Assembly: GCA_963695025.1 (NCBI GenBank)
Contig: CAVOFQ010000003.1
Span: 1,437,538 to 1,501,537, forward strand
Direction: 5' to 3'
DNA length: 64,000 bases
From: an uncultured Actinomycetes bacterium
Lineage (GTDB): Bacteria > Actinomycetota > Thermoleophilia > Gaiellales > JAICJC01
Below the pieces are notes generated by a model. The model had not been told where the DNA came from, did no database searches, and was given only the letters and a program-made list of their open reading frames with translations. This document shows positions 25,051 to 46,822 of this stretch, in pieces (the stretch's first letter is position 1; each line of letters begins with the position of its first letter). Position numbers and translations under genes: made by a program.

Positions 25051-25734
25051 ATGAGACGCAAGACGGTGTACCGGGCGATCGAGGGCATCGATCGGGGCCA
25101 GCTTGAGCAGTTCCAGGCCGGCATGCGGAAGCGCTACTCGGACGACCATATCCTGGAGGAGTTGCGCGCATGCGCCCATCGCCTCGGGCGGTCGCCGACG
25201 ATGCGCGAGTTCGAGGCCGATGCGGGTACCACGGTCCATCCGCAAACTGTGATCGAGCACTTCAAGTCGTGGAACCGAGCCAAGCGGCTCGCCGGTCTGG
25301 TACCGCGCAGGTTCGCGACCCAGGACGAGTTGCTGCGGCTGCTGCGCGACCTCGGCGACGAGCTCGGGCGCGTGCCGACGGCCAAGGACATCGAGGCCCG
25401 CAAGGGTGCGATGCCCTCGAAGTCGCTCTACTGGCACACCTTCGGGTCGCTCAACAACGCCCTCAAGCAGGCCGGCTTCGACGTGCCGGTGGGGGAGGAG
25501 CGGCTGGAGCGGGCGGTCGAGCAGGGCGCGGCCCTGTCGTTGCGCAGCGGGCGCCTGCCCAAGTTCGCCGACTGGGCGCAGGCCCGGCGCACGGATCCGA
25601 CGATGCTCACCGAGTGGCAGGTGTACCGCATGTTCGATGCCCGCCGGGGGGCGTGGTCGACCTTCCAGTACCTGATCCGCAAGCGGCTCGAGCAGCGCGG
25701 AGTGTCGATCTCGCCCGAGGGCCGCGTCAGCTGA
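25051..25734 (+). CDS. Homing-endonuclease-associated repeat protein without a nuclease domain
   Basis: Repeats LGRSPT...FKSWNRAKRLAGL and LGRVPT...FGSLNNALKQAGF, plus a degenerate third copy. Confidence 0.8.
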   Translation: MRRKTVYRAIEGIDRGQLEQFQAGMRKRYSDDHILEELRACAHRLGRSPTMREFEADAGTTVHPQTVIEHFKSWNRAKRLAGLVPRRFATQDELLRLLRDLGDELGRVPTAKDIEARKGAMPSKSLYWHTFGSLNNALKQAGFDVPVGEERLERAVEQGAALSLRSGRLPKFADWAQARRTDPTMLTEWQVYRMFDARRGAWSTFQYLIRKRLEQRGVSISPEGRVS

Positions 25735-26152
25735 CCGGACCGCAGACGGGGCACGACGAGCGCTCGAGCAGATCGAGCGCCGCCACCTCGGAAAGCGCGG
25801 TTGCCAGCAGCTCGGCCCAGACGCCGGAGCACAGGTCGACGTCGAGGAGGCGCTCCCAGTGGAGCGTGTTCAGCCCCACCGACACGCGCACCTGCGCCAC
25901 CGCGGGCGCGCCCGGCTCGGCGTCGGAGGCCGACGTGAACTCGAGTGGCGCGTACAGGGTGACGGCGGCGCAATGGTCGCCGGAGCGGAGGCGGGCGATG
26001 TAGAACGGCGGCTCGGAGCCGCCGAGGTCGACGTAGCGGTACCCGCGCATGGCGGGCTCGAGCGGGACGATGGCGTGCGAGCAGCCGGAACGGATGCGCT
26101 CGGCATCGACGGGACTGAGCCCGTCGGGGGTGGGTGCGGAGGCGTGATGCAT
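25727..26152 (-). CDS. Hypothetical protein with C-terminal CPVC
   Basis: Open frame with plausible codon bias; stop overlaps the end of the neighbouring gene. Confidence 0.45.
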
Positions 26153-26250
26153 ACCTTGGTAGTCGGCGCGCGGACACGGCTCGCCATCCCCCGACGGCGC
26201 TAACGCACAACAGTTGGGATGCAAACCAGCCCCATCGCTTCCACCGCCCC

Positions 26251-26278
26251 TCAAGAGATGGGTCGCGGGCGCCGATTC
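26251..26278 (+). promoter_or_regulatory. Sigma28 (WhiG/FliA)-type promoter
   Basis: TCAAG-N15-GCCGATTC upstream of the sigma factor gene. Confidence 0.65.
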
Positions 26279-26340
26279 ACTGGTGGAGAGTAGTTGTACG
26301 TGCCCGTCGCCGGATCCCAAGAGAAAGCCCGCCCCCAACC

Positions 26341-27285
26341 ATGTCCGCCATGCCAGACGACGATCCCATCGCGGTGCCCGGCCCGGTTCCGGCGCAGTCG
26401 GAGTTCGACTCGCCCGAGGTGGTCGAGGAGCTCGATCTGAGCGACGGTCCGGCCCCGGCGGTCGACCTGCTGCACACCTACGTGCGCCAGATCGGCGACG
26501 GCGCCCTGCTGACGAGGGCCGAGGAGCTCGAGCTGGCCCGGCGCAAGGACCGCGGCGACAACGATGCCAAGCACCGCCTGGTCGAGGCCAACCTGCGCCT
26601 CGTGATCAGCATGGCGCGGGCATACTCGTCGGCCGGCGTGCCGCTGCTCGACCTGATCCAGGAAGGCAACATCGGGCTCATGCGCGCCGTCGAGAAGTTC
26701 GACCACACCCGCGGCTACAAGCTCTCGACCTACGCGACCTGGTGGATCCGCCAGTCGATGTCACGGGCGATCGCCGACCAGGCCCGCACCATCCGGCTCC
26801 CGCTGCACGTGCTCGACGTGATCAAGAAGCTGCACCGGGCCAGGCGGTCGCTCACCCAGAAGCTCGGCCGCGACCCGCTCATCGAGGAGCTCGCAGCCGA
26901 GCTGAAGCTGCCCGCCGAGCGCGTGCTCGAGCTGCAGCGGATCATCGAGGAGCCCGTCTCGCTCGAGGGCCCCGTCGGCGACGGCGAGTCGAACTTTTCG
27001 GAGCTGGTGGAGGACACCACGATCCGCGGGCCCGAGACATGGCTCGTGCGCCGCGAGCGCGAGCAGGAGCTGCAGACCGCGCTCGAGGAGCTGTCGGAGC
27101 GCACCCGGCAGGTGCTCGAGGCCCGCTTCGGCCTCGGCGACCGCGACCCGGCGACGCTCGAGCAGGTCGGCGCCGAGATCGGCGTCACCCGCGAGCGCGT
27201 CCGCCAGATCGAGACGCGCGCGTTGCGCGAGCTCGAGTCGAAGAACCCCGGCCTGCGCAACTTCCTCCGCGGCCAGGAGAGCTAG
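26341..27285 (+). CDS. RpoD/RpoS-family sigma-70 factor lacking region 1.1 (group 2)
   Basis: [50 protein letters not shown]. Confidence 0.93.
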
Positions 27286-27333
27286 CCGCGGCGCCCGCGC
27301 GGGCGCTCATCCGAGACTGGCAGACTTCGGCCC

Positions 27334-28335
27334 GTGAGTTCGCTCCAGTCGTTCTGGCACGCCACAACGGATTTCTGGTCCCAGATCACCGATGTGCGCT
27401 TCTCGGCACTCCTGATCGCGGTCGGATTCACGCTGGCGAACCTGACCCTGCGGGCGAGCGCCTGGCGGATCATCCTGCAGGCCGGCTATCCGGAGGGGCG
27501 CGTCCGCTGGCGCAGCATCCTCGGCGCCTATCTCGCCGGGGTCGGGGTCAACAGCATCGTGCCGGCACGCGGCGGCGACGTGATGAAGGTCTACCTGGCG
27601 CACCGGTCGATGCCCAAGGCGGCCTACACGACGATCACCTCGAGCCTGCTGGCCGAGACGCTGGTCGACGTCGTGATCGGCCCGGCGCTCCTGATCGCGG
27701 CCTACCTGACCGGCCGGATCCCGCACCTGCCGGCGCTCGGCCATCTCGCCGCGTTCGAGTGGAGCTTCTTCGCGTCCCACGCCCGCTGGTTCATGCTCGG
27801 GGTGGCGGTGATCCTGATCCTGCTCGGCGTGTTCTTCACCTACGTGGAGCGGCACGTGGTCGCGTTCTGGGAGCGGGTGCGGCTGGGGCTCGCGATCCTG
27901 ACCACTCCGCGCCGCTATTTCCGCACCGTGGTGCCGCTGCAGCTCCTCGGCTGGTGCTGCCGGATCGCGGCCATGTACTGGTTCCTGGCGGCCTTCCACG
28001 TGCCGGCGGGGGTGGTGACCGCCGCGCTGGCGCTCGCGGCCCAGAGCGCCTCGACGCTCCTGCCGCTGACGCCCGGCGGCGTCGGCACCCAGCAGGCGCT
28101 CCTGGGCTACATGTTCCGGAACGCGGCCCCAACCAGCCGCGTGCTCGCCTTCAGCGTCGGCATGCAGTTCGTGACCACGCTTGCAAACGCCGTCGTCGGC
28201 GGCCTCGCGATCTGGCTCACGCTGCGCCGGCTGCCGTGGAAGGCGCGGCCCGGCAGGGCCCGCCTCGGGCGTTGCCCCCTCGGGATAATCCCGGTCCCTC
28301 GTCCACGCACGATAATGCTGGTTATGTCAAGTTGA
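27334..28335 (+). CDS. Lysylphosphatidylglycerol synthase TM / flippase-like membrane protein
   Basis: NSIVPARGGDVMK, LPLTPGGVG; the true stop may be TAA at 28286-28288 after an indel. Confidence 0.85.
   Translation: MSSLQSFWHATTDFWSQITDVRFSALLIAVGFTLANLTLRASAWRIILQAGYPEGRVRWRSILGAYLAGVGVNSIVPARGGDVMKVYLAHRSMPKAAYTTITSSLLAETLVDVVIGPALLIAAYLTGRIPHLPALGHLAAFEWSFFASHARWFMLGVAVILILLGVFFTYVERHVVAFWERVRLGLAILTTPRRYFRTVVPLQLLGWCCRIAAMYWFLAAFHVPAGVVTAALALAAQSASTLLPLTPGGVGTQQALLGYMFRNAAPTSRVLAFSVGMQFVTTLANAVVGGLAIWLTLRRLPWKARPGRARLGRCPLGIIPVPRPRTIMLVMSS
28305..28332 (+). other. dif site (XerCD chromosome dimer resolution)
   Basis: ACGCACGATAA-TGCTGG-TTATGTCAAGT: 11-6-11 layout with the actinobacterial XerD arm; gene strand bias changes around it. 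Confidence 0.88.
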
Positions 28336-28378
28336 AGTAAAACCGGCCAACACCGGTGGACTGTGGGGACGCAGTGTT

Positions 28379-28410
28379 GGGGTCTGTCCCCTCTCGGGGG
28401 GACAGACCCC
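28379..28410. repeat. REP-like inverted pair / bidirectional terminator
   Basis: GGGGTCTGTCCCC-tctcgg-GGGGACAGACCCC, a perfect 13-bp stem between convergent genes. Confidence 0.65.
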
Positions 28411-28419
28411 CGCTCCGGT

Positions 28420-29147
28420 CTAGCCGGCCAGCGGGTGCGTCGGATCGACCGGGGCCAGGTAGGCCCGCCGCATCCGCGCCTGCATCTGGCGCTCGCGCGC
28501 CTCGGCCAGAAGCTCCGCACCGGTGCCGCCGTCGGCGAGCTCGGCAAATCCGGCCGGGCCGAACGACAGGTCGCGCGACATGCGCTCGCTCGCCGCCAGC
28601 GCGTCGCGCACCCGCTTGAACGCCGAGCGGGCCTCGAACGTGCCGGCGCGCGGGAAGATCAGCGCGAACTGGCCGGCGCCCAGGTGTGCGACGCGGTCGT
28701 CCTGGCGCACGGCGCTCAGCGCCAGCGCACCGATCTGGCCGACGATGTCGGCCTGGTCGATCATGCCGGGGCCCATCTCGAGCCCGTTCAGCTCGAAGAC
28801 GGCCACGGCCAACGGCTGGCTGCGCCAGCGCGCGACGGACGGCCACCCGCTCGAGCTCGAGCGCGAACCCGTGCGCATCCAGCGTCAGGCCGGCCGAGAC
28901 GCCGGCGGCCGCCAGCGCCAGCTTGGCGCAGTCGGACAGCACCGTCACGAATGCCAGTTCGAGCCGGCCGGGAGTGCGACTGCAGTCGATCTCGATCCCC
29001 GTCGCGCGTCGGCCGCAGCGTGCACGGCACGGCCGCGCGCGCCACCGCGTCTGCGAGGATGCGCTCGATCTCGTGCGCATCGGCGTCCGGGGCCGTGAGG
29101 GCGGCCGCGGCCTCGGACAGGATCTCGATCAGGCGAAGCTCACGCAT
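28420..29147 (-). CDS. Degenerate GGDEF-domain protein (indels near 28880 and 29000)
   Basis: GGDEF fold motifs (LELER, LAVAVF, RQDDRVAHLGAGQFALI, LSFGPAGFA, ELLAEA). Confidence 0.7.
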
Positions 29148-29155
29148 TTGTCAAC

Positions 29156-29183
29156 GTATCGGGCGACGACGGCGATGTCTTGA
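29156..29183 (-). promoter_or_regulatory. Sigma28-type promoter, probably leaderless
   Basis: TCAAG-N15-CCCGATAC, with the ATG 8 nt downstream. Confidence 0.65.
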
Positions 29184-29194
29184 GCGCCCGCGGC

Positions 29195-30625
29195 TCAGGC
29201 GGCCGCGCGCGGGGTCATGGACCACCGGATACTCCATGGTCTCGACCGCGCGCGAGGCCGCCGGCGTCGATCGCGAACTGCCCGCGGCGGTACCACCCCG
29301 GCGCCCGCTCGAGCACGCGCAGGAAGGCGTCGACAGGTCCGGCCTCGTACTGGCTGCCCTTGCCCAGCACGAGCTGCTCGATGGCGCGCTCGGGCGACAT
29401 GCCGCCCCGGTACGGGCGGTTCGAGGTCATGGCGTTGTAGGAGTCGGCGACCGCGATCACCCGGGCCAGCTGCGGGATCTCCTCGCCGCGCAGGTTGTCG
29501 GGATAGCCGGCGCCGTCCCAGCGCTCGTGGTGGCTGCGGACGACCTCGGCCATGTCGGCATAGCCGGGAACCTCGAGCAGGATCGCCTCGCCGATCGCCG
29601 AATGGCGGCGCATCTCCTCCCACTCGCCCTCGTCCAGGGCAGCCTGCTTCTCGAGCACCTCCGCGCGCACGCCGATCTTGCCGATGTCGTGCACGAGCCC
29701 GCACAGATGGATCCGGGCCGACTCCTCCCGGCTCATGCCGAGCTCGCGGGCGATGTCGCGTGAATACTCGGCGACCGCCTTGGAATGGCCTGCCGTGTAG
29801 GCGTCGCGCCCGTCGATGGCCTTCACGAGCGCCTCGGCAAAGCTCATGTTGATTCGCCGCAGCTGACCGTTGGCGGCCTCGAGATCGGCATTGGCCCGCT
29901 CGAGCGCGCCGATCAGGTGCTCCTTCGGGGCGTGCATGCCGAACGCATACCTGGTCGCCGCCACCGGGATCGCGAAGAAGACCAGCACCCAGACCCCCGA
30001 GCCGCGATAGGCATAGGCGAACAGGGCGCCGATTGGCGCGCACAGGGAGACGGTGATGAGCGCATGGACGCGCACCTGCCGCCACAGCTCGACGATCGAA
30101 CTGCGGTGGCGCAGCCACAGCGTCACCGCCGGTGACGCCGAACTCCACCGCCGAGGCCACGATCGCAGCGACACAGGCGATGGCGAACAGGTGCCCCAGG
30201 CCGGCGTCGGACACCGGCGCCTGCGCCTGCACGGCCATCGCGGCCAGGCCCGCGCACGCGCCCGCGGCGGCGCGCCCGCACGTGAAGATGACGAACCTCT
30301 CCACCGGTCCGCGACGGTCTGACAGCATCGCCCCGAGCCCCACGATCGCCGCCGCGGCCGGGCCGAAGAGGACGGCGGCCATCACCAGCGGGATGAGCGA
30401 GCCGGACAGTTCGACCCGGGTCGAGATCCTGACCGTGCGCGACTCCGCGACGTACGCGACGACCCCCAGGATCAGGACTGACTCCCACCGCCCCATCGCC
30501 ATGCGCAAGGGCGCAGTAAAGGACAAGCCCCAGCGACGCGGCCGCAAGAACGGCTGCGTACGCCCGGACTGCCCTTCGGGGATCTGGGGTGGAAATATGT
30601 ATCGCTCATACAGGTGATTTGACAT
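29195..30625 (-). CDS. Membrane-bound HD-GYP c-di-GMP phosphodiesterase (MASE9-like N-terminus; indels near 30560, 30492, 30130)
   Basis: Multi-TM N-terminus; DAYTAGHS, LVHDIGK, HHERWDGAGYP, VADSYNAMTSNRPYR. Confidence 0.9.
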   Translation of the reverse strand: MSNHLYERYIFPPQIPEGQSGRTQPFLRPRRWGLSFTAPLRMAMGRWESVLILGVVAYVAESRTVRISTRVELSGSLIPLVMAAVLFGPAAAAIVGLGAMLSDRRGPVERFVIFTCGRAAAGACAGLAAMAVQAQAPVSDAGLGHLFAIACVAAIVASAVEFGVTGGDAVAAPPQFDRRAVAAGARPCAHHRLPVRANRRPVRLCLSRLGGLGAGLLRDPGGGDQVCVRHARPEGAPDRRARAGQCRSRGRQRSAAANQHELCRGAREGHRRARRLHGRPFQGGRRVFTRHRPRARHEPGGVGPDPSVRARARHRQDRRARGGAREAGCPGRGRVGGDAPPFGDRRGDPARGSRLCRHGRGRPQPPRALGRRRLSRQPARRGDPAAGPGDRGRRLLQRHDLEPPVPGRHVARARHRAARAGQGQPVRGRTCRRLPARARAGAGVVPPRAVRDRRRRPRARSRPWSIRWSMTPRAAA

Positions 30626-30647
30626 CCCTTGACTGAGCGGCTATGCT
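30619..30647 (+). promoter_or_regulatory. Near-consensus sigmaA promoter
   Basis: TTGACA-N17-TATGCT. Confidence 0.65.
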
Positions 30648-30690
30648 CTCCCTCGTTCGGGGTACTGAGATTCGCAAGGGGGAACAGGCA

Positions 30691-30711
30691 ATGCCTATCA
30701 AGGGTTGGTAA
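30691..30711 (+). CDS. Candidate micro-ORF MPIKGW
   Basis: SD-like AAGGGGG (30676-30682), 8-nt spacer, ATG CCT ATC AAG GGT TGG TAA. Confidence 0.25.
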   Translation: MPIKGW

Positions 30712-30733
30712 TACCACACCGGTGCTGATCGGC

Positions 30734-30761
30734 TTATCGACAGTTCGGAGGCCTTTGGTTA
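30734..30761 (-). promoter_or_regulatory. Sigma28-type promoter for the HD-GYP gene
   Basis: TAACC-N15-GTCGATAA. Confidence 0.55.
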
Positions 30762-30823
30762 GCCCGAGTTTGGGGTTGGTCAAGCCACAAACACCGATAG
30801 TCAACAAGCCGACAAGTTCTCGC

Positions 30824-30868
30824 CGCGCCCTTGCAAGACGGTCGTTCGCCACCGTCGTGCAGGGGCGC
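30824..30868 (+). terminator. Long hairpin (possible terminator or processing site)
   Basis: GCGCCCTTGCA/TGCAGGGGCGC outer stem and GACGG/CCGTC inner stem; no U-tract. Confidence 0.4.
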
Positions 30869-30923
30869 TGCGCGTTGAACCCGCAGTCAGCCCACTTGCG
30901 CCCGCCCAATTCCGCCCCCATGC

Positions 30924-30951
30924 TCAAGGCGAGGCCCTCCCACGCCGATAC
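30924..30951 (+). promoter_or_regulatory. Sigma28-type promoter for the coiled-coil gene
   Basis: TCAAG-N15-GCCGATAC. Confidence 0.65.
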
Positions 30952-31044
30952 AAACCGCGGAGAGCACGGCGCCCCGCCGGCTCGCCGCCTGGAGGCGCTG
31001 GTCAAGCCTTCGCACCGATCACCCCACGGGAGAGGTATGAGCAT

Positions 31045-33204
31045 ATGAGCGACGCCCCGACGCCTGCGAACGAAGACGCCCCCAGTGGGCTTAGGCGCGC
31101 CATGGAGGATCGGCTGTCGTCGCTTCGCCAGGCCGAGGAGAGGCTCCAGCGCGAGCAGTCTGCGCTGCAGGAGCAGGCGAAGGTCGTCTTCGCCGAGCGC
31201 GAGGCGCGGCTCGCGCGCCGCGAGCGCGAGTTGTCAAAGCGCGAGGCCGCCCTGGCCGTGAGCGAGGGCATCGCCTCATCGCACGCATCCGGCGGCGGCG
31301 ACGCCGACCGCATCCATCTCGAGGAGCGCGAGGCCGAGCTCCAGCGCCGCGTCGACGAGTTGGACGGGCGCGAGCAGGCACTCCACGCCCGCGAGAGCGA
31401 GGCCCCCGACCCCGACTCCGTGCCGGCTGAAGCCAGCGTCGACCCCGCCGTGACCGCGCGCCTGGCCGAGCTGGAAGAGGCGACCCAGACGCTCGAGCAG
31501 CAGGTCGACCACGAGCAGCGCCAGCGCGAGCAGGTCGAGCGCGAGCGCGACGATCTCGTCGAGCAGCTTCGCGACCGCGGAGCGATCGGCTCTGTGGAGC
31601 TCGCCGAGCGCGAGGCCCGCATGACCAAGCTCGAGGCCGAGCTCACCGACCGCGAGCACCGCACCAAGAAGGTCGAAAAGGTGCTCACCCAGAAGGAGCT
31701 CTCGATCGATGCCGTGCGCGCCGACATGATGCAGCGCACCGAGGAGATCGAGGCGGCCGAGCGCAGGCTGGCCGAGGTACAGGCATCGATCACGGAGCGC
31801 GAGACGGCTGCGGCCACGCTGGCGGCAGAGGCCGCCGAGAAGCTCGCCACGATCGGCGCGCGAGAGGCCGAGCTGGCCCGGTCGGTGGACGAGCTCGCAG
31901 CGCTCCAGGCGGAGCTGCACGAGACGTCCGCGTCGGTCGAGGAGCGGTCCGCAAACATCGAGAAGACCCAGGAGCGCGCCGCGGCGCTGCACGCCGAGGC
32001 CGAGCGCCGCAAGGCCGAGGCCGAGGAGCGGCTCACCCAACTCGCCGACCGCGAGCGCGAGCTGGCCCTGGTCGACGGCAAGCTGGTCGAGCTCGAGCAG
32101 GGAACCGCCGCCGTCGAGGCCACCAAGGCCGATCTCGTCGCCCGCGAACAGGCTCTCGAGAAACGGGCCGAGGAGCTCGCAACGTTCGAGAGCCAGCTCG
32201 CCGACCTCGATGACCAGCGCGCCCGCGCCGAGCAGGCCGCACAGGTCGCCTCGGCCGAACGCGAGCGCCTGAAGACCGAGCGCAACGCCACTGACAAGCG
32301 CCGCACCGAGCTCGCCGAGATGGAGCGGCGCCTGGTGGGCATGGACGCGCGCATGGAGGAGATCGACCTGCGCCACAAGCAGGTCGAGCAGGACGAGCGC
32401 GAGGTCTCCGAGGCACGGGTTGCCGCGGAGCGCCTCCACAGCGAGGCGGACCGTCTGCGTGTGCAGGCGGAGCGAGCCATCGCCGAGGCCGACGAGCGCG
32501 CCTCCGTCGAGGTCAAGCGCCTGTCCGCCGACCTGCGCGAGCGCGAATCGCGGCTGGGCGCCAACGAGAGCGACGTCGCCCGGCGCGAGAGCAGGCTCGA
32601 CCGGCGTCAGGACTCGCTCGACACGCGCGAGCGCGAGCTCGACACCCGCCACGACGCCATGGAGCTGCGCGAAGCACAGTTGCGCGAGCGCGAGGCGGAC
32701 GTTGCCCGGCTGACGGTGCGTGCCGACCGGATCGAGACCGATCTCGAGGCCCAGCACGCTGCCCTGGCCGATGCGGAGGAGGCGGTCGCCCGCGAGCGGG
32801 CGGTGCTCCAGCGCCAGAAGGCCGCGATCGAGCAGCGCGAGAAGGATGCACGCGAGGATCTCGACCGGGCCGTGCGCACCGCGATCTCCGACGACGGCGG
32901 CCGGCGCGGCAAGGCCCCCGACGCCAAGGCGCTCGAGGAGCTGCACGCAGCATTGCGGAGCCGCGAGGCCGAGCTGAAGGCGCAGGAGCGCCGGCTGGCC
33001 GAGCGCCAGGCGTCCCTCGTCCGCCGCGAGGCCGACCTCGAGACCTACGCCGGCAATCTCCAGCGCGAGGGCGGTGCAACCGGACCGGTCCTGCCGCCGG
33101 CGGTGCCCGAGCAGAACGGCAACGGCGCCTCGGATGACGCCCACGACGGCCAGCCGGCCGAGTCGGGCAGCGGCGCCAGCCGTCTGAACTTCTGGTCGCG
33201 CTAG
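31045..33204 (+). CDS. Large coiled-coil protein
   Basis: 719 aa, E/R/A/L-rich heptads (RExEL repeats), no ATPase motifs, ends SRLNFWSR. Confidence 0.85.
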   Translation: MSDAPTPANEDAPSGLRRAMEDRLSSLRQAEERLQREQSALQEQAKVVFAEREARLARRERELSKREAALAVSEGIASSHASGGGDADRIHLEEREAELQRRVDELDGREQALHARESEAPDPDSVPAEASVDPAVTARLAELEEATQTLEQQVDHEQRQREQVERERDDLVEQLRDRGAIGSVELAEREARMTKLEAELTDREHRTKKVEKVLTQKELSIDAVRADMMQRTEEIEAAERRLAEVQASITERETAAATLAAEAAEKLATIGAREAELARSVDELAALQAELHETSASVEERSANIEKTQERAAALHAEAERRKAEAEERLTQLADRERELALVDGKLVELEQGTAAVEATKADLVAREQALEKRAEELATFESQLADLDDQRARAEQAAQVASAERERLKTERNATDKRRTELAEMERRLVGMDARMEEIDLRHKQVEQDEREVSEARVAAERLHSEADRLRVQAERAIAEADERASVEVKRLSADLRERESRLGANESDVARRESRLDRRQDSLDTRERELDTRHDAMELREAQLREREADVARLTVRADRIETDLEAQHAALADAEEAVARERAVLQRQKAAIEQREKDAREDLDRAVRTAISDDGGRRGKAPDAKALEELHAALRSREAELKAQERRLAERQASLVRREADLETYAGNLQREGGATGPVLPPAVPEQNGNGASDDAHDGQPAESGSGASRLNFWSR

Positions 33205-33237
33205 GGCACCGTCCGCCGGCACGAATAGGGTCCCGCC

Positions 33238-34050
33238 ATGCGGGGACGGGCCGGCCATGTTCGTCAGCTCGCGGTGGTCGGCGCGGTTGCGCTGGCCGCC
33301 GCGGCGTGGCTCCTGCCTCCCCCGCTTCGGCCGGGCGCACTCGCCATCGCTGCGCTTCTGGCCTCCACGGAGGGTCGAGCCGGCGGCGTCACCGCCGCCG
33401 CCGTGGCGGCCGTCACACCCGTCCCGGGTCCCGTGCGGGCCGCGATCGCCGTGACGGCCGTCGTCGCGGCCGAGCTCGAGCATCGCCACCGCACCGCCCG
33501 GCGAACATTGCGCGCGCGGTCGTTCACCGACCGCCTGACCGGTCTTCGCAACTACGACTACTTCTCGGAGGTGCTGCGCAGTGAGCTGGCACGCGTGCGC
33601 CGCTACGGCGGCTGTGTCACGCTGGTCATGATCGACCTCGACCGCTTCAAGACGTACAACGACAGCCACGGTCACGCAGCCGGAAACCGGCTGCTGGCAG
33701 AGGTCGGCCGTACGCTTGCCCGCGAGAAGCGCGACGCCGACATCGCCGCCCGCTTCGGCGGCGAGGAGTTCGCGCTGCTCGTGCCCGGCCGGGGCACCGA
33801 CGCGGTGATCGTCGCCGAGCGGGTGCGCCAGGCAATCGCCGAGATCTCGACCGCCGGTCTCGACCGCCACCATGTACCCGACATCGTGACGGTCTCGGCC
33901 GGAATCGCAACGTTCCCGGTCGATGCCCGCGACGCCGAGGAGCTGTTCGAGGAGGCTGACCGGGCGCTCTACGAGGCGAAGCGCCGGGGCCGTAACCGCG
34001 TCGTCTGCGCCGAGCAGGCGCGCGACGGCGAGCGCCGCCTGGTTGGCTAA
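33238..34050 (+). CDS. Membrane-anchored diguanylate cyclase
   Basis: DRLTGLRN, DLDRFKTYND, RDAD I-site, RFGGEEF, ADRALYEAK. Confidence 0.93.
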   Translation: MRGRAGHVRQLAVVGAVALAAAAWLLPPPLRPGALAIAALLASTEGRAGGVTAAAVAAVTPVPGPVRAAIAVTAVVAAELEHRHRTARRTLRARSFTDRLTGLRNYDYFSEVLRSELARVRRYGGCVTLVMIDLDRFKTYNDSHGHAAGNRLLAEVGRTLAREKRDADIAARFGGEEFALLVPGRGTDAVIVAERVRQAIAEISTAGLDRHHVPDIVTVSAGIATFPVDARDAEELFEEADRALYEAKRRGRNRVVCAEQARDGERRLVG

Positions 34051-34667
34051 CTCAGGTCGGCGCGCTCGCTGTCGAAGCGGGCGGAGTGCAGTTGGTGGTG
34101 GAACCGCTCGACCGTCAGGTCGCGACCGTCACCGAAGGGGCGGTGCACGTAGCGGACGACCTTGTCGTGGTAGAAGGGCACGTCGAGGTGGGCGCCGCTC
34201 ACGAGGTTCAGCGACACCTCGCCGCAGCCGGGGCAGCTCATCGCGACGCCGAGCACGCCGTCGCGGCCGGAATCCGCCGGGGCGACCATGGCCAGGGTCG
34301 ACGGCCACACCGGCCGCATGCGGGCCTCCGGCGAGCAGTACAGCCGCCAGGGCCAGTTGCCGCGCTGCACCTCGCACCGGGCGAGCTCGGCCAGCTCGTC
34401 GCCGACGGGCTCGGTGCGGCCCGTCAGCAGGTTGCGGAACTCGACCTCGACCGTGCTCAGAGGGCCGTAGTCGAGGTCGTCATGCGACACGAGCCCGAGG
34501 TGCTGTTCTCCGCACGAGCAGTCGTAGGTGACGCGGTAGACGGCCGGATGGACGGCGCCGGGAAGCCGCTCGAGGCGCCGGAACGACGACAGCGGCACGC
34601 GGGTCAGCTCGCCGTCGGGACGGCGGGGACAGTGAAACCGGTAGCTGGCTCGCAACACGTCGTACAT
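34047..34667 (-). CDS. Cys/His-rich hypothetical protein, probably Zn-binding
   Basis: SD GGGAG, ATG at 34667; HCP, CSCGEQH, YC, CPGC, HLD motifs. Confidence 0.7.
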
Positions 34668-34680
34668 GGTTCTCCCGGGT

Positions 34681-34708
34681 ATATCGACCGGTCCGGCCCT
34701 GCGTGTTA
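34681..34708 (-). promoter_or_regulatory. Sigma28-type promoter
   Basis: TAACA-N15-GTCGATAT. Confidence 0.55.
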
Positions 34709-34722
34709 GCATCGCCGCGCCG

Positions 34723-35253
34723 GTGACACGCATCGATCTGCGCACGCATATCCGCGATATCCCCGACTTCCCGAAGCCGGGAATCGTGTTCAAGGACATC
34801 ATGCCGCTTCTGGCGGACGCCACGGCGCTGCACCAGGCGGTGGACGACCTGGCCGCGTGGGCCGAGCCCCGCCAGGTCGACATCGTCGTCGGGGCCGAGG
34901 CCCGCGGATTCATCCTGGGTGCCGCGATGGCCTACCGGCTCGGGTGCGGGTTCGTCGCCGCCCGCAAGCCGGGCAAGCTGCCGTACCTGACGGTCGGCGC
35001 CAAGTACGCGCTCGAGTACGGCTTCGACGCGCTCGAGATGCACGTGGACGCGCTCAAACGGGGCGCCCGCGTGCTCATCCACGACGACCTCCTGGCCACC
35101 GGCGGCACCGCCCGGGCCAAGATCGATCTCGTGGAGCAGCTGGGCGCCAATGTCGTCGGGCTCGCCTTCGTGGTCGAGCTGGCGTTCCTCAACGGCCGCG
35201 ACAAGCTGTACGGCTACGACGTCCACTCGCTGATTCAGTACGAATCCGAATAA
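34723..35253 (+). CDS. apt: Adenine phosphoribosyltransferase
   Basis: [35 protein letters not shown]. Confidence 0.97.
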
Positions 35254-35255
35254 CC

Positions 35256-35461
35256 AGGTGGTTCATCCCCAATCCCCGCGCGCCTGGTCGCCATGTCGGC
35301 TGGCGGTCAGCGTGAGGTTGGTGGCGCTGCGGCTGCGAACCGTCGCCTCGCGACGTCCTCGGTCGCGCCCATACGCTTAACCGGTATGAACGCTCCCTGC
35401 GTCCTTGCGAGGCTCGGTTCTCGCCGCCCAGCGCATCACGGGGATCGGGGATAAACCACCT
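35256..35461. mobile_element. MITE-like element (206 bp)
   Basis: 23-bp terminal inverted repeats AGGTGGTTCATCCCCAATCCCCG / CGGGGATCGGGGATAAACCACCT (2 mismatches), internal hairpins, non-coding. Confidence 0.7.
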
Positions 35462-35465
35462 ACCG

Positions 35466-36161
35466 TTACCGCGCGACGTCGCGCAGGTCGCGCACCAGGA
35501 GCAGGTGGGCGAGCTGGCTGGTCAGCTCGGCCAGCGCCTCGAGCTCCTGCAGCCCCGCCTCGCGCCGTTCGGGGTTCTGCGACCGCAGCGCCGGGGCCAT
35601 GATCTGCTCGAGCAGCCCCGCCTCCCGCTCGACCGCCGACCGGAATGCCTTCAGGTGCCGCGCGTTGACGCCGTAGCGGGCCAGCCGCTGGCAGATGATC
35701 ACGATCTCGACGTCGGTGCGGGTGTAGGTCGCGTGCGCCTCACCGGCGTGCCGGTCGACGAGCTGGAACTCCTCGAGCTCACGGACGAAGGTCGGGTCGG
35801 AGTCCGCCGCCCCGAGCAGCTGGTCGAACGTCAGCCGGTCCTCCACCCCGCCCACGAGCCGCGGCCGGCGGCCGGTGCCCGCGGCCGATCGGCCCTGCGC
35901 GATCACCTGCCGGATCACCCGCAGCGGCAGGAACTCGTCGCGCTGCATCCGCAGGATCGTGCGGAGCTGCTCGACATCCTCCTCGCCGTAGAGGCGATAG
36001 CCGCCGGGCGTGCGCCGGGGCGTGATCAGCCGCTGGTCCTCGAGGAACCGGATCTTCGAGATCGAGATGTCGGGAAACTCCTCACGCAGTGACTTGCACA
36101 CCGTGCCGATGGTGAGCCTCGAGGTCGAGCTGCCGCGTCCTTCGGTGGCCTCTGCCGACAC
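35466..36161 (-). CDS. MerR-family regulator (FtsR-like)
   Basis: EFPDISISKIRFLE, PRRTPGGYRLY, FLPLRVI; follows an FHA gene. Confidence 0.9.
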   Translation of the reverse strand: MSAEATEGRGSSTSRLTIGTVCKSLREEFPDISISKIRFLEDQRLITPRRTPGGYRLYGEEDVEQLRTILRMQRDEFLPLRVIRQVIAQGRSAAGTGRRPRLVGGVEDRLTFDQLLGAADSDPTFVRELEEFQLVDRHAGEAHATYTRTDVEIVIICQRLARYGVNARHLKAFRSAVEREAGLLEQIMAPALRSQNPERREAGLQELEALAELTSQLAHLLLVRDLRDVAR

Positions 36162-36162
36162 G

Positions 36163-36624
36163 TCAGGCCCCTCGCTCGATGTAGGTCAGCCGGTACTTGC
36201 CGATCTGCACCTCGTCGCCGTCGGCGAGGCGGACGCTCTCGATCCGCTGCCGGTTCACGTAGGTGCCGTTCAGGCTGCCCGAGTCGGACAGGTGCAGCCC
36301 GTCGTCGCGGCGGTCGAGCACGGCGTGCTCGCGCGAGACGGTGATGTCGTCCAGAAAGATGTCGGCGTTCTCGGCCCGCCCGATCGCCATATGGTCTGAC
36401 CCGAGCAGAAACTGCTCCCCCGCGCGGCCGCCGCCGATCCGGATCACCAGCATCGCCCCCTCGGGCGTCTCGTCGCCGGCCTCCGCGTCACCCTCCTCGT
36501 CGACGAACGCCGTGAAGGCCTGCGTCACCTCGCCGCCGTCGGGTTCGAGCAGGCTCGCGCCGCAGCGTCCGCAAAAGCGGGCCGCCTCGCGGTTGTGATG
36601 ACCGCACTCAGGGCAGTACGCCAC
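36163..36624 (-). CDS. Zinc-ribbon plus FHA protein (GarA/OdhI-like)
   Basis: CPECG...FCGRCG; GR..DIFLDDITVSREHA, DSGSLNGTYVN. Confidence 0.92.
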   Translation of the reverse strand: MAYCPECGHHNREAARFCGRCGASLLEPDGGEVTQAFTAFVDEEGDAEAGDETPEGAMLVIRIGGGRAGEQFLLGSDHMAIGRAENADIFLDDITVSREHAVLDRRDDGLHLSDSGSLNGTYVNRQRIESVRLADGDEVQIGKYRLTYIERGA

Positions 36625-36626
36625 CG

Positions 36627-36914
36627 CTACCCGCTGGACGCCGCGCCGGGCTCGTCATCGAGGCCCGGCGGCGGCCCCCGGTGGGCGAGGATGTCCGTCA
36701 ACCTGTCGATATCGATCTCAGACAGCGTCGAGGGGCTGCCGGTCTCGCGGCGTTTGACCCGGTCGACCAGCTCGGCCCGGAGGATGTCGATCTTGCCGTG
36801 CAGCAGGCGCCGCCGGTACGACACCTCCTCCTCCTCGCGCACGAAACGCTCGATGAGGGTTTTCAGCTCGTCGTCGGAGATGGTGGTGAAATCGGGCAGC
36901 ACATCCATTGGCAT
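36627..36914 (-). CDS. rsiG: c-di-GMP-binding anti-sigma factor RsiG, single-motif (homodimeric) type
   Basis: EEEVSYRRRLLHGKID = E-x3-S-x2-R-x3-(Q/H)-x3-D, flanked by SDDEL and ILRAEL. Confidence 0.85.
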   Translation of the reverse strand: MPMDVLPDFTTISDDELKTLIERFVREEEEVSYRRRLLHGKIDILRAELVDRVKRRETGSPSTLSEIDIDRLTDILAHRGPPPGLDDEPGAASSG

Positions 36915-36944
36915 GATCCGTTTCCGTTTCTCTAGACCGGGCGA

Positions 36945-36983
36945 AGTCTACCCACGCATCGGCATTTCCTCAAGCTCTGGTTG
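36945..36983 (-). promoter_or_regulatory. Overlapping sigmaA-like and sigma28-like promoters of rsiG
   Basis: TTGAGG-N17-TAGACT and CAACC-N15-GCCGATGC. Confidence 0.45.
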
Positions 36984-37005
36984 AGGGTTCGGCCGCGGCG
37001 GTGTT

Positions 37006-46748: not shown

Positions 46749-46822
46749 TCGGGGCGAGAGGATTTGAACCTCCGACCGCCCGGCCCCCAGCCGGGTGCGC
46801 TACCAGACTGCGCCACGCCCCG
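46749..46822 (-). tRNA. tRNA-Pro(GGG)
   Basis: CGGGGCGTGGCGCAGTCTGGTAGCGCA-CCCGG CT GGG GG CCGGG-...GGTTCAAATCC...CGCCCCGA cloverleaf; CCA not encoded. Confidence 0.97.

What the first reader, a model, noticed from the sequence alone, without database searches (positions are those of the whole stretch)
26251..36983. Terminus-located c-di-GMP / RsiG / sigma28 circuit revealed by a shared promoter motif
Seen: six correctly oriented promoters with identical 15-nt spacers. TCAAG-N15-GCCGATTC precedes the group-2 sigma factor, TCAAG-N15-CCCGATAC the degenerate GGDEF, TAACC-N15-GTCGATAA the HD-GYP, TCAAG-N15-GCCGATAC the coiled-coil gene (with the DGC just downstream), TAACA-N15-GTCGATAT the Cys-rich protein, and CAACC-N15-GCCGATGC rsiG. 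GCCGA-type -10 elements alone also sit 7 nt before the ATGs at 11071 and 26152. Known: WhiG/FliA recognise TAAA-N15/16-GCCGATAA-like promoters and RsiG inhibits WhiG when bound to c-di-GMP. Inference: a self-contained feedback system in which sigma28 drives a cyclase, a phosphodiesterase, a receptor, its own anti-sigma and a second sigma factor. This would be a sigma cascade controlling an unknown developmental or lifestyle switch. The sigma28 gene itself is not in this window.
Basis: partly seen in the sequence, partly recalled or inferred. Interest (0 to 1): 0.8.

Follow-up and report, generated by a model that had tools for sequence, protein, structure and literature searches.

The report
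WhiG-type promoters on c-di-GMP genes

Summary
Five are real, conserved sigma-28/WhiG-type promoters (T[CA]A[AC]-N16-[GC][CT]CGAT): 5 matches in the window against 0.21 expected, kept in every covering same-genus locus while the spacers drift. They precede a group-2-like sigma, a degenerate GGDEF protein, an HD-GYP phosphodiesterase, a coiled-coil/diguanylate-cyclase operon and a Cys-rich protein.

They are not a self-contained circuit. They are the densest patch of a genome-wide regulon of about 28 intergenic sites. At least 11 of those sites serve c-di-GMP enzymes or receptors; others serve a Tad pilus operon and response regulators.

A WhiG2-type sigma gene lies about 140 kb away. RsiG here is a single-motif form, as expected for Thermoleophilia.

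The sixth site, at rsiG, is chance. Its GCCGAT is absent from 13 of 13 relatives. What is conserved there is a sigma-70-like promoter carrying an FtsR-like inverted repeat, in front of an rsiG-odhI-ftsR operon found across the class.

Frameshifts in whiG, the HD-GYP gene and the GGDEF-like gene look like assembly indel errors.

This scan has already reported WhiG-type regulons in other actinobacterial genomes. This is a new member of a known kind.

The parts
26251..26278 (+). Sigma-28/WhiG-type promoter TCAAG-N15-GCCGATTC, 62 nt before the sigma gene's ATG
   Evidence: Located. Kept in 8 of 8 covering same-genus loci with variable spacer. A like motif stands before the matching sigma gene in 5 of 10 loci fetched from other families of the order.
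26341..27285 (+). Group-2-like sigma-70 family sigma factor, 314 aa, regions 1.2 to 4. The LPG_synthase_TM gene at 27334-28335 follows after 48 nt and may be co-transcribed.
   Evidence: Pfam Sigma70_r1_2, r2, r3, r4. Best NCBIfam rows are RpoD/RpoS/SigB, all under their cut-offs.
29156..29183 (-). Sigma-28/WhiG-type promoter TCAAG-N15-CCCGATAC; ATG 8 nt after the box at 29147 (leaderless geometry)
   Evidence: Kept in 10 of 10 same-genus loci. ATG at +7/+8 in relatives.
28420..29147 (-). Degenerate GGDEF protein, 241 aa in relatives: GGDEF replaced by GA[GD][QRNH]F, RxxD I-site kept. Reading frame broken twice in this assembly.
   Evidence: Three-frame reading. Intact 241-aa orthologues. R147 and D150 invariant in 24 of 24 aligned homologues. 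AF2 pLDDT 85.5. Foldseek gave 91 PDB matches at E<=0.001, top rows GGDEF domains with TM 0.63-0.75 over 147-156 columns. Short-read contigs lack one base at 28841 and 29007.
30734..30761 (-). Sigma-28/WhiG-type promoter TAACC-N15-GTCGATAA, 108 nt before the HD-GYP ATG at 30625
   Evidence: Kept in 10 of 10 same-genus loci.
29215..30625 (-). Membrane-anchored HD-GYP c-di-GMP phosphodiesterase, 467-489 aa in relatives. Frame broken in this assembly.
   Evidence: Pfam HD_5 112.6 bits on the C-terminal frame. HDIGK and GYP motifs. Intact orthologues (Pfam). Short-read contigs lack one base at 30128, 29219, 29251, 30496 and 30596.
30924..30951 (+). Sigma-28/WhiG-type promoter TCAAG-N15-GCCGATAC, 93 nt before the coiled-coil gene
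   Evidence: Kept in 10 of 10 same-genus loci.
31045..33204 (+). 719-aa all-coiled-coil protein, first gene of the operon
   Evidence: Only coiled-coil-type weak hits. Sequence.
33238..34050 (+). Diguanylate cyclase with N-terminal membrane segment, GGEEF active site and RDAD I-site, 33 nt after the coiled-coil gene
   Evidence: Pfam GGDEF 146.4 bits. TIGR00254 156.6 bits. Motifs.
34681..34708 (-). Sigma-28/WhiG-type promoter TAACA-N15-GTCGATAT; ATG 13 nt after the box
   Evidence: Kept in 7 of 7 covering same-genus loci.
34047..34667 (-). Cys-rich 206-aa protein of unknown function, small actinobacterial family
   Evidence: No Pfam or NCBIfam hit. 239 homologues at E<=0.001 among 1.84 billion representatives. 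AF2 pLDDT 90.1. No PDB fold match: Foldseek best E 0.04, VIA best Z 4.1.
36956..36983 (-).
   Evidence: GCCGAT in 0 of 13 same-genus relatives. A sigma-28-like motif before rsiG in only 3 of 79 Thermoleophilia loci.
36945..36986 (-). Conserved rsiG promoter: inverted repeat CCTCAA-N7-TTGAGG (FtsR-like box) whose right arm is the -35, then 17 nt, then TAGACT
   Evidence: Box and TA[GC]ACT kept in 13 of 13 same-genus relatives. Box CT[CA][AGT]A-N7-TTGA present in 69 of 79 Thermoleophilia loci, against 0.0013 per shuffled region and 0 of 2988 other windows. 18 of 25 letters equal the C. glutamicum ftsZ FtsR site quoted in PMC6683498. The same layout stands before ftsZ in this genome. The simple sigma-70 scan did not call it, at 8 of 12 consensus letters.
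36627..36914 (-). rsiG: single-motif anti-sigma, 95 aa, motif E(X)3S(X)2R(X)3H(X)3D
   Evidence: PF22802 72.9 bits against cut-off 27. Only copy in the genome. Best PDB hit is R. radiotolerans RsiG 7lq2, E 1.9e-10. Sequence.
36163..36624 (-). OdhI/GarA-like FHA protein with N-terminal zinc ribbon
   Evidence: Pfam FHA and Zn_Ribbon_1. NCBIfam OdhI 117 bits, under cut-off 200.
35466..36161 (-). ftsR: MerR-family regulator
   Evidence: NCBIfam TF_FtsR_Actino 200.6 bits against cut-off 150.

Best explanation
The five conserved boxes are promoters read by the sigma-28-family factor WhiG of a Gaiellales bacterium (class Thermoleophilia).

Inferred from the published Streptomyces and Rubrobacter systems: WhiG is held inactive by a dimer of the single-motif anti-sigma RsiG when c-di-GMP is bound. 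When c-di-GMP falls, WhiG is freed and transcribes a regulon made largely of c-di-GMP machinery.

Shown here by sequence and conservation, the regulon holds HD-GYP phosphodiesterases, diguanylate cyclases, PilZ and degenerate-GGDEF receptors, a PAS-GAF histidine kinase, two response regulators, a Tad/Flp pilus operon and a group-2-like sigma factor that would pass the signal on.

The window holds the densest patch of this regulon: five promoters in 8.5 kb next to rsiG.

Inferred logic: phosphodiesterase targets give positive feedback, and cyclase targets give delayed negative feedback.

rsiG is not a WhiG target. It is the first gene of an rsiG-odhI-ftsR operon with a housekeeping-type promoter. 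That promoter overlaps an inverted repeat resembling the binding site of FtsR, so the amount of anti-sigma is probably set by the cell-division regulator encoded in the same operon.
For: Motif and statistics:. The motif equals the published WhiG2 consensus T(A/C)AA-N16-GCCGA.

Phylogenetic footprints: in all covering same-genus loci the two blocks are fixed and the spacers vary.

Geometry: 9 of 28 intergenic sites (10 counting a doubtful 65-aa ORF) have a long ORF starting 5-10 nt after the box, as expected for leaderless mRNAs starting 6-8 nt after a -10. The degenerate-GGDEF site does too, once read as in relatives.

Regulon content:
- Of 28 intergenic sites (27 units), 9 have a first gene with a GGDEF, EAL, HD-GYP or PilZ domain or the degenerate GGDEF. 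Two more have such a gene second in the operon.
- The background is about 43 such genes among about 3350.
- Hypergeometric P is 1.5e-11 for the 9 and 4e-15 for the 11.
- Other targets are CpaB of a Tad cluster with its only nearby T2SSE ATPase, NarL- and OmpR-type regulators and a PAS-GAF kinase.

A second species: G003 (85% DNA identity at this locus) has 21 matches to the N15 pattern against 3 for the reversed control. 13 of the 20 N15 intergenic sites of this genome, plus the kinase site, are kept before the orthologue.

Sigma and anti-sigma:
- TIGR02479 scores 262 bits at C3:1296441, and 230 bits to S. venezuelae WhiG 6pfj.
- The c-di-GMP contacts K57/G61/R62 are present as KYVAGR, and 4 of 5 sigma-4 RsiG contacts are kept.
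- A full-length orthologue at 88-99% identity is in 16 of 18 same-genus genomes. One of these is the unpublished G016; without it the count is 15 of 17.
- RsiG. The Q-to-H change in its motif is described as compatible with binding in PMC8325347 section 5.

Co-loss: G023 has no WhiG, no RsiG and no motif before the sigma gene.

rsiG promoter.
Against: No transcription start, expression or binding data exist for this organism.

In this assembly whiG is out of frame after codon 43, through one extra C. I read this as an assembly error by analogy; the whiG site itself was not checked against reads.

The genome has a second sigma-28 paralogue (C3:616154-616978, 200.7 bits). The published WhiG1 and WhiG2 consensus sequences overlap, so sequence alone cannot assign the boxes to WhiG.

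G024 (100% complete, 40 contigs) keeps the motif before its sigma gene and has RsiG, yet shows no FliA/WhiG match over the cut-off.

Seven of the 20 N15 intergenic sites were not refound in G003 with the strict pattern.

My gene calls come from a crude home-made caller, and indel errors in the assembly blur starts.

The FtsR-box reading rests on likeness to a site quoted from one paper. The two-member pattern was made after seeing both sites. The simple sigma-70 scan found no promoter there.
Confidence: 0.72

Rival explanations
1. The boxes, or a subset such as the TAAC...GTCGATA class, are read by the second sigma-28 paralogue (C3:616154-616978). That paralogue would not be controlled by RsiG and c-di-GMP, so the regulon would be c-di-GMP output without c-di-GMP input.
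For: The paralogue passes the FliA/WhiG cut-off at 200.7 bits and is kept in the genus at 38-39% identity to WhiG. It has Cys in place of G61 and 1 of 5 RsiG-contact residues, like the published WhiG1 clade. The preprint could not separate the WhiG1 and WhiG2 target motifs. Two box classes, TCAAG/[GC]CCGAT and TAAC[CA]/GTCGATA, are each kept across the genus. G024 keeps a box without a detectable WhiG.
Against: Genome-wide the -35 and -10 variants do not co-vary strictly; TCAAG occurs with GTCGAT and TAAC with GCCGAT. The boxes fit the WhiG2 consensus TCAA/TAAA-N16-GCCGAT better than the reported WhiG1 form CTCA-N16-17-GCCGAACT. The densest patch lies beside rsiG. G024 also lacks a match of the paralogue type over the cut-off.
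Confidence: 0.15
2. One reading: a self-contained local loop in which WhiG also transcribes rsiG from CAACC-N15-GCCGATGC.
For: The string is present, correctly oriented, 41 nt before the rsiG ATG.
Against: The -10 is absent from 13 of 13 relatives. A sigma-28-like box precedes rsiG in 3 of 79 class-wide loci. CAACC is part of a conserved inverted repeat belonging to another promoter. The regulon is genome-wide.
Confidence: 0.04
3. The locus-encoded group-2-like sigma factor reads the boxes itself and autoregulates; WhiG plays no part.
For: Its own gene carries one of the boxes. An earlier finding of this scan, e1-5335081, describes a locus-encoded sigma taking the place of WhiG in another genome.
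Against: It is an RpoD/RpoS/SigB-like protein with regions 1.2-4. From general knowledge, that group reads TTGACA/TATAAT-like promoters, not GCCGATAA. A canonical WhiG2 and RsiG are present and conserved.
Confidence: 0.04
4. The motif is a compositional or chance pattern without promoter function.
For: A+T-rich words are generally enriched between genes in this 71% G+C genome. The loose published search rule gives much background here: 33 oriented hits at N16 against 20-23 at the in-phase control spacers.
Against. Block-wise conservation with drifting spacers. Start codons pile up at +5 to +10. Strong functional coherence of the downstream genes.
Confidence: 0.01

Closest known systems
Rubrobacter radiotolerans (RsiG)2-(c-di-GMP)2-WhiG switch and its regulon (Schumacher et al. 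2021, PMC8325347; I read the abstract and sections 5, 13, 14)
   Same: Single-motif RsiG (best PDB hit 7lq2). WhiG with conserved c-di-GMP contacts. The same promoter type. Targets that include several DGC/PDE genes and a pilus cluster. Non-flagellated, as far as this 89%-complete genome shows.
   Different: The pilus target here is a Tad/Flp (CpaB) operon rather than type IVa pil genes. c-di-GMP genes dominate: at least 11 of 28 sites, against 5 of 12 promoters in that paper. A group-2-like sigma, PilZ proteins and a degenerate GGDEF receptor are targets, and five promoters are packed next to rsiG. No start-site mapping exists here.
Phylum-wide predicted WhiG1/WhiG2 regulons (Denis et al. 2026, bioRxiv 10.64898/2026.01.14.699351; I read the abstract and sections 6, 8, 9, 18; supplements not seen)
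   Same: The consensus T(A/C)AA-N16-GCCGA. DGC/PDE genes as the most widespread predicted targets, with feedback loops proposed. Sigma factors and response regulators among targets. Two paralogue clades told apart by K57/G61/R62 and the sigma-4 contacts.
   Different: The words Gaiell- and Thermoleophil- do not occur in its main text, so this lineage seems not to be treated there. Its supplementary tables, which I could not see, may list related targets. Here a WhiG1-like paralogue occurs without a flagellar cluster.
[quoted passage not shown] 2020, PMC7005675; passages only)
   Same: The same sigma family (230 bits to 6pfj) and the same c-di-GMP contact residues.
   Different: RsiG there is a twin-motif monomer. 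The regulon there is sporulation genes (whiH, whiI), with few c-di-GMP genes according to the 2026 preprint.
FtsR (MerR family) and its 25-bp inverted repeat at ftsZ in Corynebacterium glutamicum and M. tuberculosis (Kraxner et al. 2019, PMC6683498; passages only)
   Same: ftsR passes the NCBIfam equivalog cut-off. odhI-ftsR linkage. The box before rsiG shares 18 of 25 letters and both half-sites with the quoted ftsZ site. A like box stands before ftsZ in this genome.
   Different: rsiG as the first gene of the cluster, and a box in front of the regulator's own operon, are not mentioned in the passages I read. No paper in the searched library holds both 'RsiG' and 'FtsR'.

Membership tests
WhiG2/sigma-28-dependent promoter | -35 T(A/C)AA, 16 nt, -10 GCCGA with invariant CGA (rule of the 2026 preprint) | tested here: met
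The two TAAC sites have a -35 mismatch (TAAC for TAAA) and GTCGA, so they fail the preprint's strict -35 rule but are conserved.
WhiG2/sigma-28-dependent promoter | Intergenic, oriented, within 200 bp of a start codon | tested here: met
   Distances from box to start are 62, 8, 108, 93 and 13 nt.
WhiG2/sigma-28-dependent promoter | Transcription start 6-8 nt after the -10, dependent on the sigma factor | not testable with these tools
   No raw RNA reads to lay. Indirect support only: start codons at +5 to +10 at 9 of 28 sites.
Single-motif RsiG anti-sigma | RsiG-like domain above the curated cut-off | tested here: met
   PF22802 72.9 bits against 27.
Single-motif RsiG anti-sigma | One E(X)3S(X)2R(X)3[Q/H](X)3D motif in a protein of about 85-120 aa | tested here: met
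   EEEVSYRRRLLHGKID in a 95-aa protein. S32, R35/R36, H39 and D43 are invariant in 14 aligned homologues.
Single-motif RsiG anti-sigma | Binds c-di-GMP and WhiG as a homodimer | not tested
   No complex prediction was run.
WhiG2 clade sigma factor | FliA/WhiG family above cut-off, with K57, G61, R62 | tested here: met
   262 bits against 189.6. PLVKYVAGR in the upstream frame and in intact orthologues.
WhiG2 clade sigma factor | Sigma-4 residues T235, L236, Y239, E240, L242 that touch RsiG | tested here: inconclusive
   4 of 5 kept (Q for T235), read from the alignment with the numbering. The paralogue keeps 1 of 5.
WhiG2 clade sigma factor | Intact open reading frame | tested here: not met
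   One extra C shifts the frame in this assembly. The gene is intact in the seven same-genus loci in which the script could read it. The same kind of extra base is shown to be absent from short-read contigs at 7 places of the window, so this is probably an assembly artefact.
GGDEF domain (degenerate, receptor type) | GGDEF fold | tested here: met
   AF2 model of the intact orthologue, pLDDT 85.5. Foldseek top rows are GGDEF domains, E down to 4.5e-9. By sequence alone Pfam gives only E 0.011-0.044, under the cut-off.
GGDEF domain (degenerate, receptor type) | GG[DE]EF active site | tested here: not met
   GA[GD][QRNH]F in 24 of 24 homologues, so it is not a cyclase.
GGDEF domain (degenerate, receptor type) | RxxD I-site five residues before the active-site position | tested here: met
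   R147 and D150 are invariant in 24 of 24. Binding of c-di-GMP is not testable here.
HD-GYP phosphodiesterase | HD_5 domain with HD and GYP motifs | tested here: met
   112.6 bits. HDIGK at 162 and GYP at 223 of the C-terminal frame.
FtsR operator | 25-bp inverted repeat AACCCTnAA-N7-TTGAGGGTT near a promoter, bound by FtsR | tested here: inconclusive
   18 of 25 letters shared with the quoted C. glutamicum site. Class-wide conservation. The same layout stands before ftsZ (pattern made post hoc). Binding is not testable.

The most novel reading that the evidence does not exclude
In the deep-branching actinobacterial classes the single-motif anti-sigma gene rsiG is the first gene of the ancient odhI(garA)-ftsR operon. 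It shares with ftsZ a promoter layout built on an FtsR-type inverted repeat. If so, the cell-division and 2-oxoglutarate-node regulators set how much RsiG is made, and with it the c-di-GMP level at which WhiG is released. WhiG in turn rewires the whole c-di-GMP network and a second sigma factor. That would couple the cell cycle and central metabolism to a second-messenger lifestyle switch, a link not found in print by my searches.
Probability: 0.35. Interest if true: 0.6.

Novelty: new member of a known kind. Interest (0 to 1): 0.4.

Why it matters
It adds an uncultured, abundant soil lineage (Gaiellales) to the organisms in which c-di-GMP acts through the RsiG-WhiG switch. In this lineage the switch mainly controls the c-di-GMP network itself, plus a Tad pilus and a downstream sigma factor.

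It gives a concrete, conserved promoter set for testing feedback design. It corrects one attractive but wrong link, WhiG driving rsiG.

The rsiG-odhI-ftsR operon with an FtsR-like box is a testable lead. It would connect cell-division control with c-di-GMP signalling in early-branching Actinomycetota.

Tried and rejected
Pseudogene decay of the circuit (whiG, the HD-GYP gene and the degenerate GGDEF gene all out of frame): rejected. Orthologues are intact. Short-read contigs from four runs lack the extra bases at 28841, 29007, 30128 and four further places. Domain hits split between frames also occur elsewhere in the genome.

Flagellar regulon: no FlhA or flagellin found in this 89%-complete genome.

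RNA evidence: no RNA holder listed among 24 runs. The runs laid were contigs only, so no starts could be read.

Rfam: no riboswitch or other RNA family in the locus; one tRNA at 46749-46822 was the only hit in the window.

Simple sigma-70 and terminator scan of 36800-37100: nothing found.

Perfect FtsR-type palindrome near ftsZ: the strict forms were not found there. Only the looser CCT[AC]A-N8-TTGA layout is shared.

FtsR paper: no passage on autoregulation or on a site before odhI.

Fold of the Cys-rich protein: Foldseek best E 0.04; VIA-align wide best Z 4.1 over 61 residues, of Sso7d type; the protein atlas returned only unnamed clusters. No function assigned.

Published loose search rule: it gives too much background in this genome to define a regulon.

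Earlier notes for this genome: none fit.

Full report
**What the sequence is.** The window is G000:C3:1437538-1501537 of a 3.34-Mb, 71% G+C genome in three contigs, 89% complete. Names attached by public sources to the nearest RsiG and GGDEF-like homologues are 'Gaiellales bacterium'. The organism is therefore an uncultured member of the order Gaiellales, class Thermoleophilia.

**The observation.**
- The tight form TCAAG-N15-SCCGATWC occurs three times in the window, against none in 100 dinucleotide-preserving shuffles.
- The looser form T[AC]A[AC]-N16-[GC][CT]CGAT[AT] occurs five times against 0.21 expected. All five lie between 26.2 and 34.7 kb.
- In the whole genome the same two blocks show a sharp spacing preference. 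Other spacers give 4-16 hits that lie mostly in coding sequence.
- Written as four-letter -35 plus 16, the motif is the published WhiG2 consensus T(A/C)AA-N16-GCCGA(TAA) (bioRxiv 10.64898/2026.01.14.699351, sections 8 and 18).

**Conservation.** A DNA search of 30 relatives found the locus in synteny throughout the genus. In the same-genus loci that cover each site, the -35 and -10 blocks are unchanged while the 15-nt spacers differ:

| Promoter | Kept / covering loci |
|---|---|
| sigma | 8 of 8 |
| degenerate GGDEF | 10 of 10 |
| HD-GYP | 10 of 10 |
| coiled-coil | 10 of 10 |
| Cys-rich | 7 of 7 |

The unpublished G016 locus L021 was fetched but not used. Before the matching sigma gene of other families of the order, a TCAAG-N14/15-GCCGAT box is present in 5 of 10 loci fetched. 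One of the ten was only 186 nt long. In three of the five a GTG follows 7 nt after the box.

**The sixth site fails this test.** In 13 of 13 same-genus relatives the GCCGAT before rsiG is missing.

**The genes.**
- 26341-27285 is an RpoD/SigB-like sigma factor with regions 1.2 to 4.
- The gene after the second box is out of frame twice in this assembly but is an intact 241-aa protein in relatives, with its ATG 7-8 nt after the box.
  - Sequence methods barely see a GGDEF domain in it: Pfam E 0.011-0.044.
  - An AlphaFold model of the orthologue (pLDDT 85.5) matches solved GGDEF domains. There are 91 matches at E<=0.001, with TM 0.63-0.75 to single domains.
  - In 24 of 24 homologues the active-site GG[DE]EF is GA[GD][QRNH]F, while the RxxD I-site is invariant. 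This is the pattern of a c-di-GMP receptor rather than a cyclase.
- The third gene is a membrane-anchored HD-GYP protein with HDIGK and GYP motifs. It is also frame-broken here and intact at 467-489 aa in relatives.
- The fourth box serves a 719-aa coiled-coil protein. A cyclase with GGEEF and an RDAD I-site follows after 33 nt.
- The fifth box serves a 206-aa Cys-rich protein of a small actinobacterial family. It has a confident model (pLDDT 90.1) and no convincing match among solved folds.

**The frameshifts are most likely assembly errors.** Contigs of four soil metagenome runs that hold near-identical DNA lack one base at 28841, 29007, 29219, 29251, 30128, 30496 and 30596. These include the places where the frames break. 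GGDEF and HD-GYP domain hits split between frames also occur elsewhere in the genome.

**The sigma factor and the anti-sigma.** It is at C3:1296.3-1297.1 kb, about 140 kb before the window's start and directly after a xerC-like gene.
- It scores 262 bits on FliA_WhiG and 230 bits against S. venezuelae WhiG.
- It carries the c-di-GMP contacts K57, G61, R62 as KYVAGR, and 4 of 5 RsiG contacts in sigma-4 (residue list).
- In this assembly one extra C puts the first 43 codons out of frame. It is intact in the seven same-genus loci in which the script could read it.
- A full-length orthologue at 88-99% identity is present in 16 of 18 same-genus genomes, or 15 of 17 without the unpublished G016. One further genome has a fragment at a contig end, and in one it was not found.
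- A second sigma-28 paralogue at C3:616154-616978 scores 200.7 bits. It has Cys for G61 and 1 of 5 RsiG contacts, so it resembles the published WhiG1 type.
- The paralogue is flanked by weak FliK-like (28.6 bits, under the cut-off of 29.8) and FlaG-like (24.1 bits) ORFs. Neither FlhA nor flagellin was found in the genome.
- RsiG (36627-36914, minus strand) is the only copy. It is 95 aa with one E(X)3S(X)2R(X)3H(X)3D motif, and is most like the solved R. radiotolerans RsiG.
- A single-motif RsiG is what PMC8325347 reports for Thermoleophilia, and the Q-to-H change is described there as compatible with binding.

**The regulon is genome-wide.** The strict pattern (N14 or N15) has 36 hits, 28 of them intergenic by my own rough gene calls. 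Nine of the 28 (ten with a doubtful 65-aa ORF) have a long ORF starting 5-10 nt after the box, the geometry of leaderless mRNAs.

Downstream genes outside the window:
- two PilZ proteins;
- two HD-GYP proteins;
- a GGDEF-HD-GYP protein, a GGDEF-EAL protein and a GGDEF protein;
- a DivIVA-domain protein followed by an HD-GYP gene;
- an OmpR-type regulator and a NarL-type regulator, the latter with two tandem boxes;
- CpaB at the head of a Tad/Flp cluster that holds one of only two T2SSE ATPases in the genome;
- a PspA-like protein, an aminotransferase, a dienelactone hydrolase fragment, a FlaG-like ORF and several proteins without a family;
- a further site that I had scored as coding, which precedes a PAS-GAF histidine kinase.

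Together with the window, 9 of 27 units start with a c-di-GMP gene and 11 contain one. The background is about 43 such genes among about 3350, giving P = 1.5e-11 and 4e-15. Looser boxes at leaderless distance precede three further c-di-GMP genes.

In G003, which shares 85% DNA identity at this locus, the N15 pattern has 21 matches against 3 for the reversed control. Thirteen of this genome's 20 N15 intergenic sites, plus the kinase site, are kept before the orthologous gene. Seven were not refound.

Five of 28 sites within 8.5 kb is unlikely by chance. It arose in 7 of 200,000 uniform placements, and in 1.7% under a deliberately extreme model that counts only intergenic DNA.

**What stands before rsiG.** The conserved element is CCTCAA-N7-TTGAGG, then 17 nt, then TAGACT. 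It is kept in 13 of 13 same-genus relatives, with TA[GC]ACT as the -10.
- The inverted repeat shares 18 of 25 letters, including both half-sites, with the FtsR site of the C. glutamicum ftsZ promoter as quoted in PMC6683498 (I read passages only).
- rsiG is followed directly by an OdhI/GarA-like FHA gene and by ftsR, which scores 200.6 bits against a cut-off of 150.

Across 80 Thermoleophilia loci found with an RsiG alignment:
- rsiG is followed by odhI in 69 and by ftsR in 79;
- the box CT[CA][AGT]A-N7-TTGA stands before rsiG in 69 of 79 usable loci, against 0.0013 per shuffled region and 0 of 2988 other windows;
- a sigma-28-like box is there in only 3 of 79.

In a sample of the phylum, the same three-gene order appears in 10 of 29 best RsiG loci. 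Five are of the same class and five of one other family. No locus with a twin-motif-sized ORF shows it. The tally of 139 of 201 genomes with RsiG includes seven unpublished genomes; without them it is 132 of 194.

In this genome the layout CCT[AC]A-N8-TTGA[CG][AG]-N16-18-TAnnnT occurs only twice: before rsiG and 109 nt before ftsZ, the textbook FtsR target. I made that pattern after seeing both sites, so it shows specificity, not independent discovery.

Caveats on this element:
- The simple sigma-70 scan does not call the rsiG promoter, at 8 of 12 consensus letters.
- The FtsR paper's text holds nothing on autoregulation.
- No paper in the searched library holds both 'RsiG' and 'FtsR', and none holds both 'Gaiellales' and 'c-di-GMP'.

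**How it most likely works.** Shown: the boxes, their conservation, the genes they precede, and the presence and type of WhiG and RsiG. Inferred from the Streptomyces and Rubrobacter work:
- With c-di-GMP bound, an RsiG dimer sequesters WhiG.
- When c-di-GMP falls, WhiG transcribes phosphodiesterases (self-reinforcing), cyclases (resetting), receptors, a Tad pilus operon, regulators and a second sigma factor.
- rsiG is made from a housekeeping-type promoter that FtsR probably modulates.

The main uncertainty is which of the two sigma-28 paralogues reads which box. G024 keeps a box and RsiG without a detectable WhiG. G023 lacks WhiG, RsiG and the box together.

**Comparison and novelty.** WhiG-RsiG control of pili and DGC/PDE genes is published for Rubrobacter. 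Feedback onto c-di-GMP enzymes is proposed phylum-wide in the 2026 preprint, whose supplementary tables I could not see. This scan has already reported WhiG-type regulons in Gaiellaceae, Solirubrobacterales, Acidithrix and other genomes. The finding is therefore a new member of a known kind. Two additions may be worth follow-up: a WhiG-driven group-2-like sigma factor kept across the order, and the rsiG-odhI-ftsR operon with its FtsR-like box.

**Terminus.** The contig's cumulative GC skew peaks at 1.385 Mb on a flat top from 1.34 to 1.48 Mb, and gene orientation flips around 1.44-1.52 Mb. The locus is therefore terminus-proximal, within roughly 90 kb. I attach no functional meaning to that.

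Noticed in passing
window 35256-35470: A roughly 210-bp miniature inverted-repeat element with 22-bp terminal inverted repeats (GGTGGTT[CT]ATCCCC[AG]ATCCCCG) sits between apt and ftsR. Further copies lie in this genome (C3:22974, 88445, 771489) and in same-genus genomes.
   Followed up: partly
window 28300-30700; G000:C3:1296300-1296450: The assembly carries many single-base insertions. Seven places in 2.4 kb are one base shorter in short-read contigs of four runs, and whiG has one extra C. Gene calls and completeness (89%) for this genome are probably depressed by such errors.
   Followed up: partly
G000:C3:614955-617255 (L065): A second sigma-28 paralogue of the WhiG1-like type is flanked by weak FliK-like and FlaG-like ORFs. 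A sigma-28 box precedes the FlaG-like ORF. The genome shows no FlhA or flagellin, so this is possibly a relic of a lost flagellar cluster.
   Followed up: partly
G024:C11:91727-92164; G020:C2:238730-239164; proteins P0074, P0085: Twin-motif RsiG forms made by tandem duplication occur inside Gaiellales, next to odhI-ftsR, and among metagenome homologues about 51% identical to the single-motif protein. This suggests the duplication happened more than once.
   Followed up: no
phylum sample: The RsiG domain was found in 139 of 201 evenly drawn genomes of the phylum (132 of 194 without seven unpublished genomes). Many sit in ORFs of about 100 aa outside the window's class. That is far wider than the 5 single-motif cases among 673 genomes in PMC8325347.
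   Followed up: no
G000:C3:1080461-1080502 and C3:830170: The genome has two ftsZ genes. The one at C3:1080611 has a CCTAA-N8-TTGACA-N17-TAGTCT promoter layout like that of rsiG.
   Followed up: partly
window 26153-26250, minus strand: A conserved GTTTGCA...TGTGCGTTAGC element lies before the 141-aa gene 25727-26152. In three relatives (loci L013, L018, L019) a TAAC-N16-GCCGAA or GTCGAA box stands there, but in this genome the -35 reads ATGG.
   Followed up: partly
window 34047-34667: The Cys-rich WhiG-target protein has a confident predicted structure (pLDDT 90.1) with no match among solved structures beyond small Sso7d-like beta units at Z 4.1.
   Followed up: yes
window 25051-25734: A protein with two homing-endonuclease-associated HNH repeats (PF18780, 104 bits) lies just before the locus.
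   Followed up: no
G000:C3:162286-163178 and window 30924-34050: Twice in the regulon a coiled-coil or DivIVA-type protein heads an operon whose second gene is a c-di-GMP enzyme: DivIVA-domain plus HD-GYP, and coiled-coil plus cyclase. This hints at localised c-di-GMP turnover.
   Followed up: no
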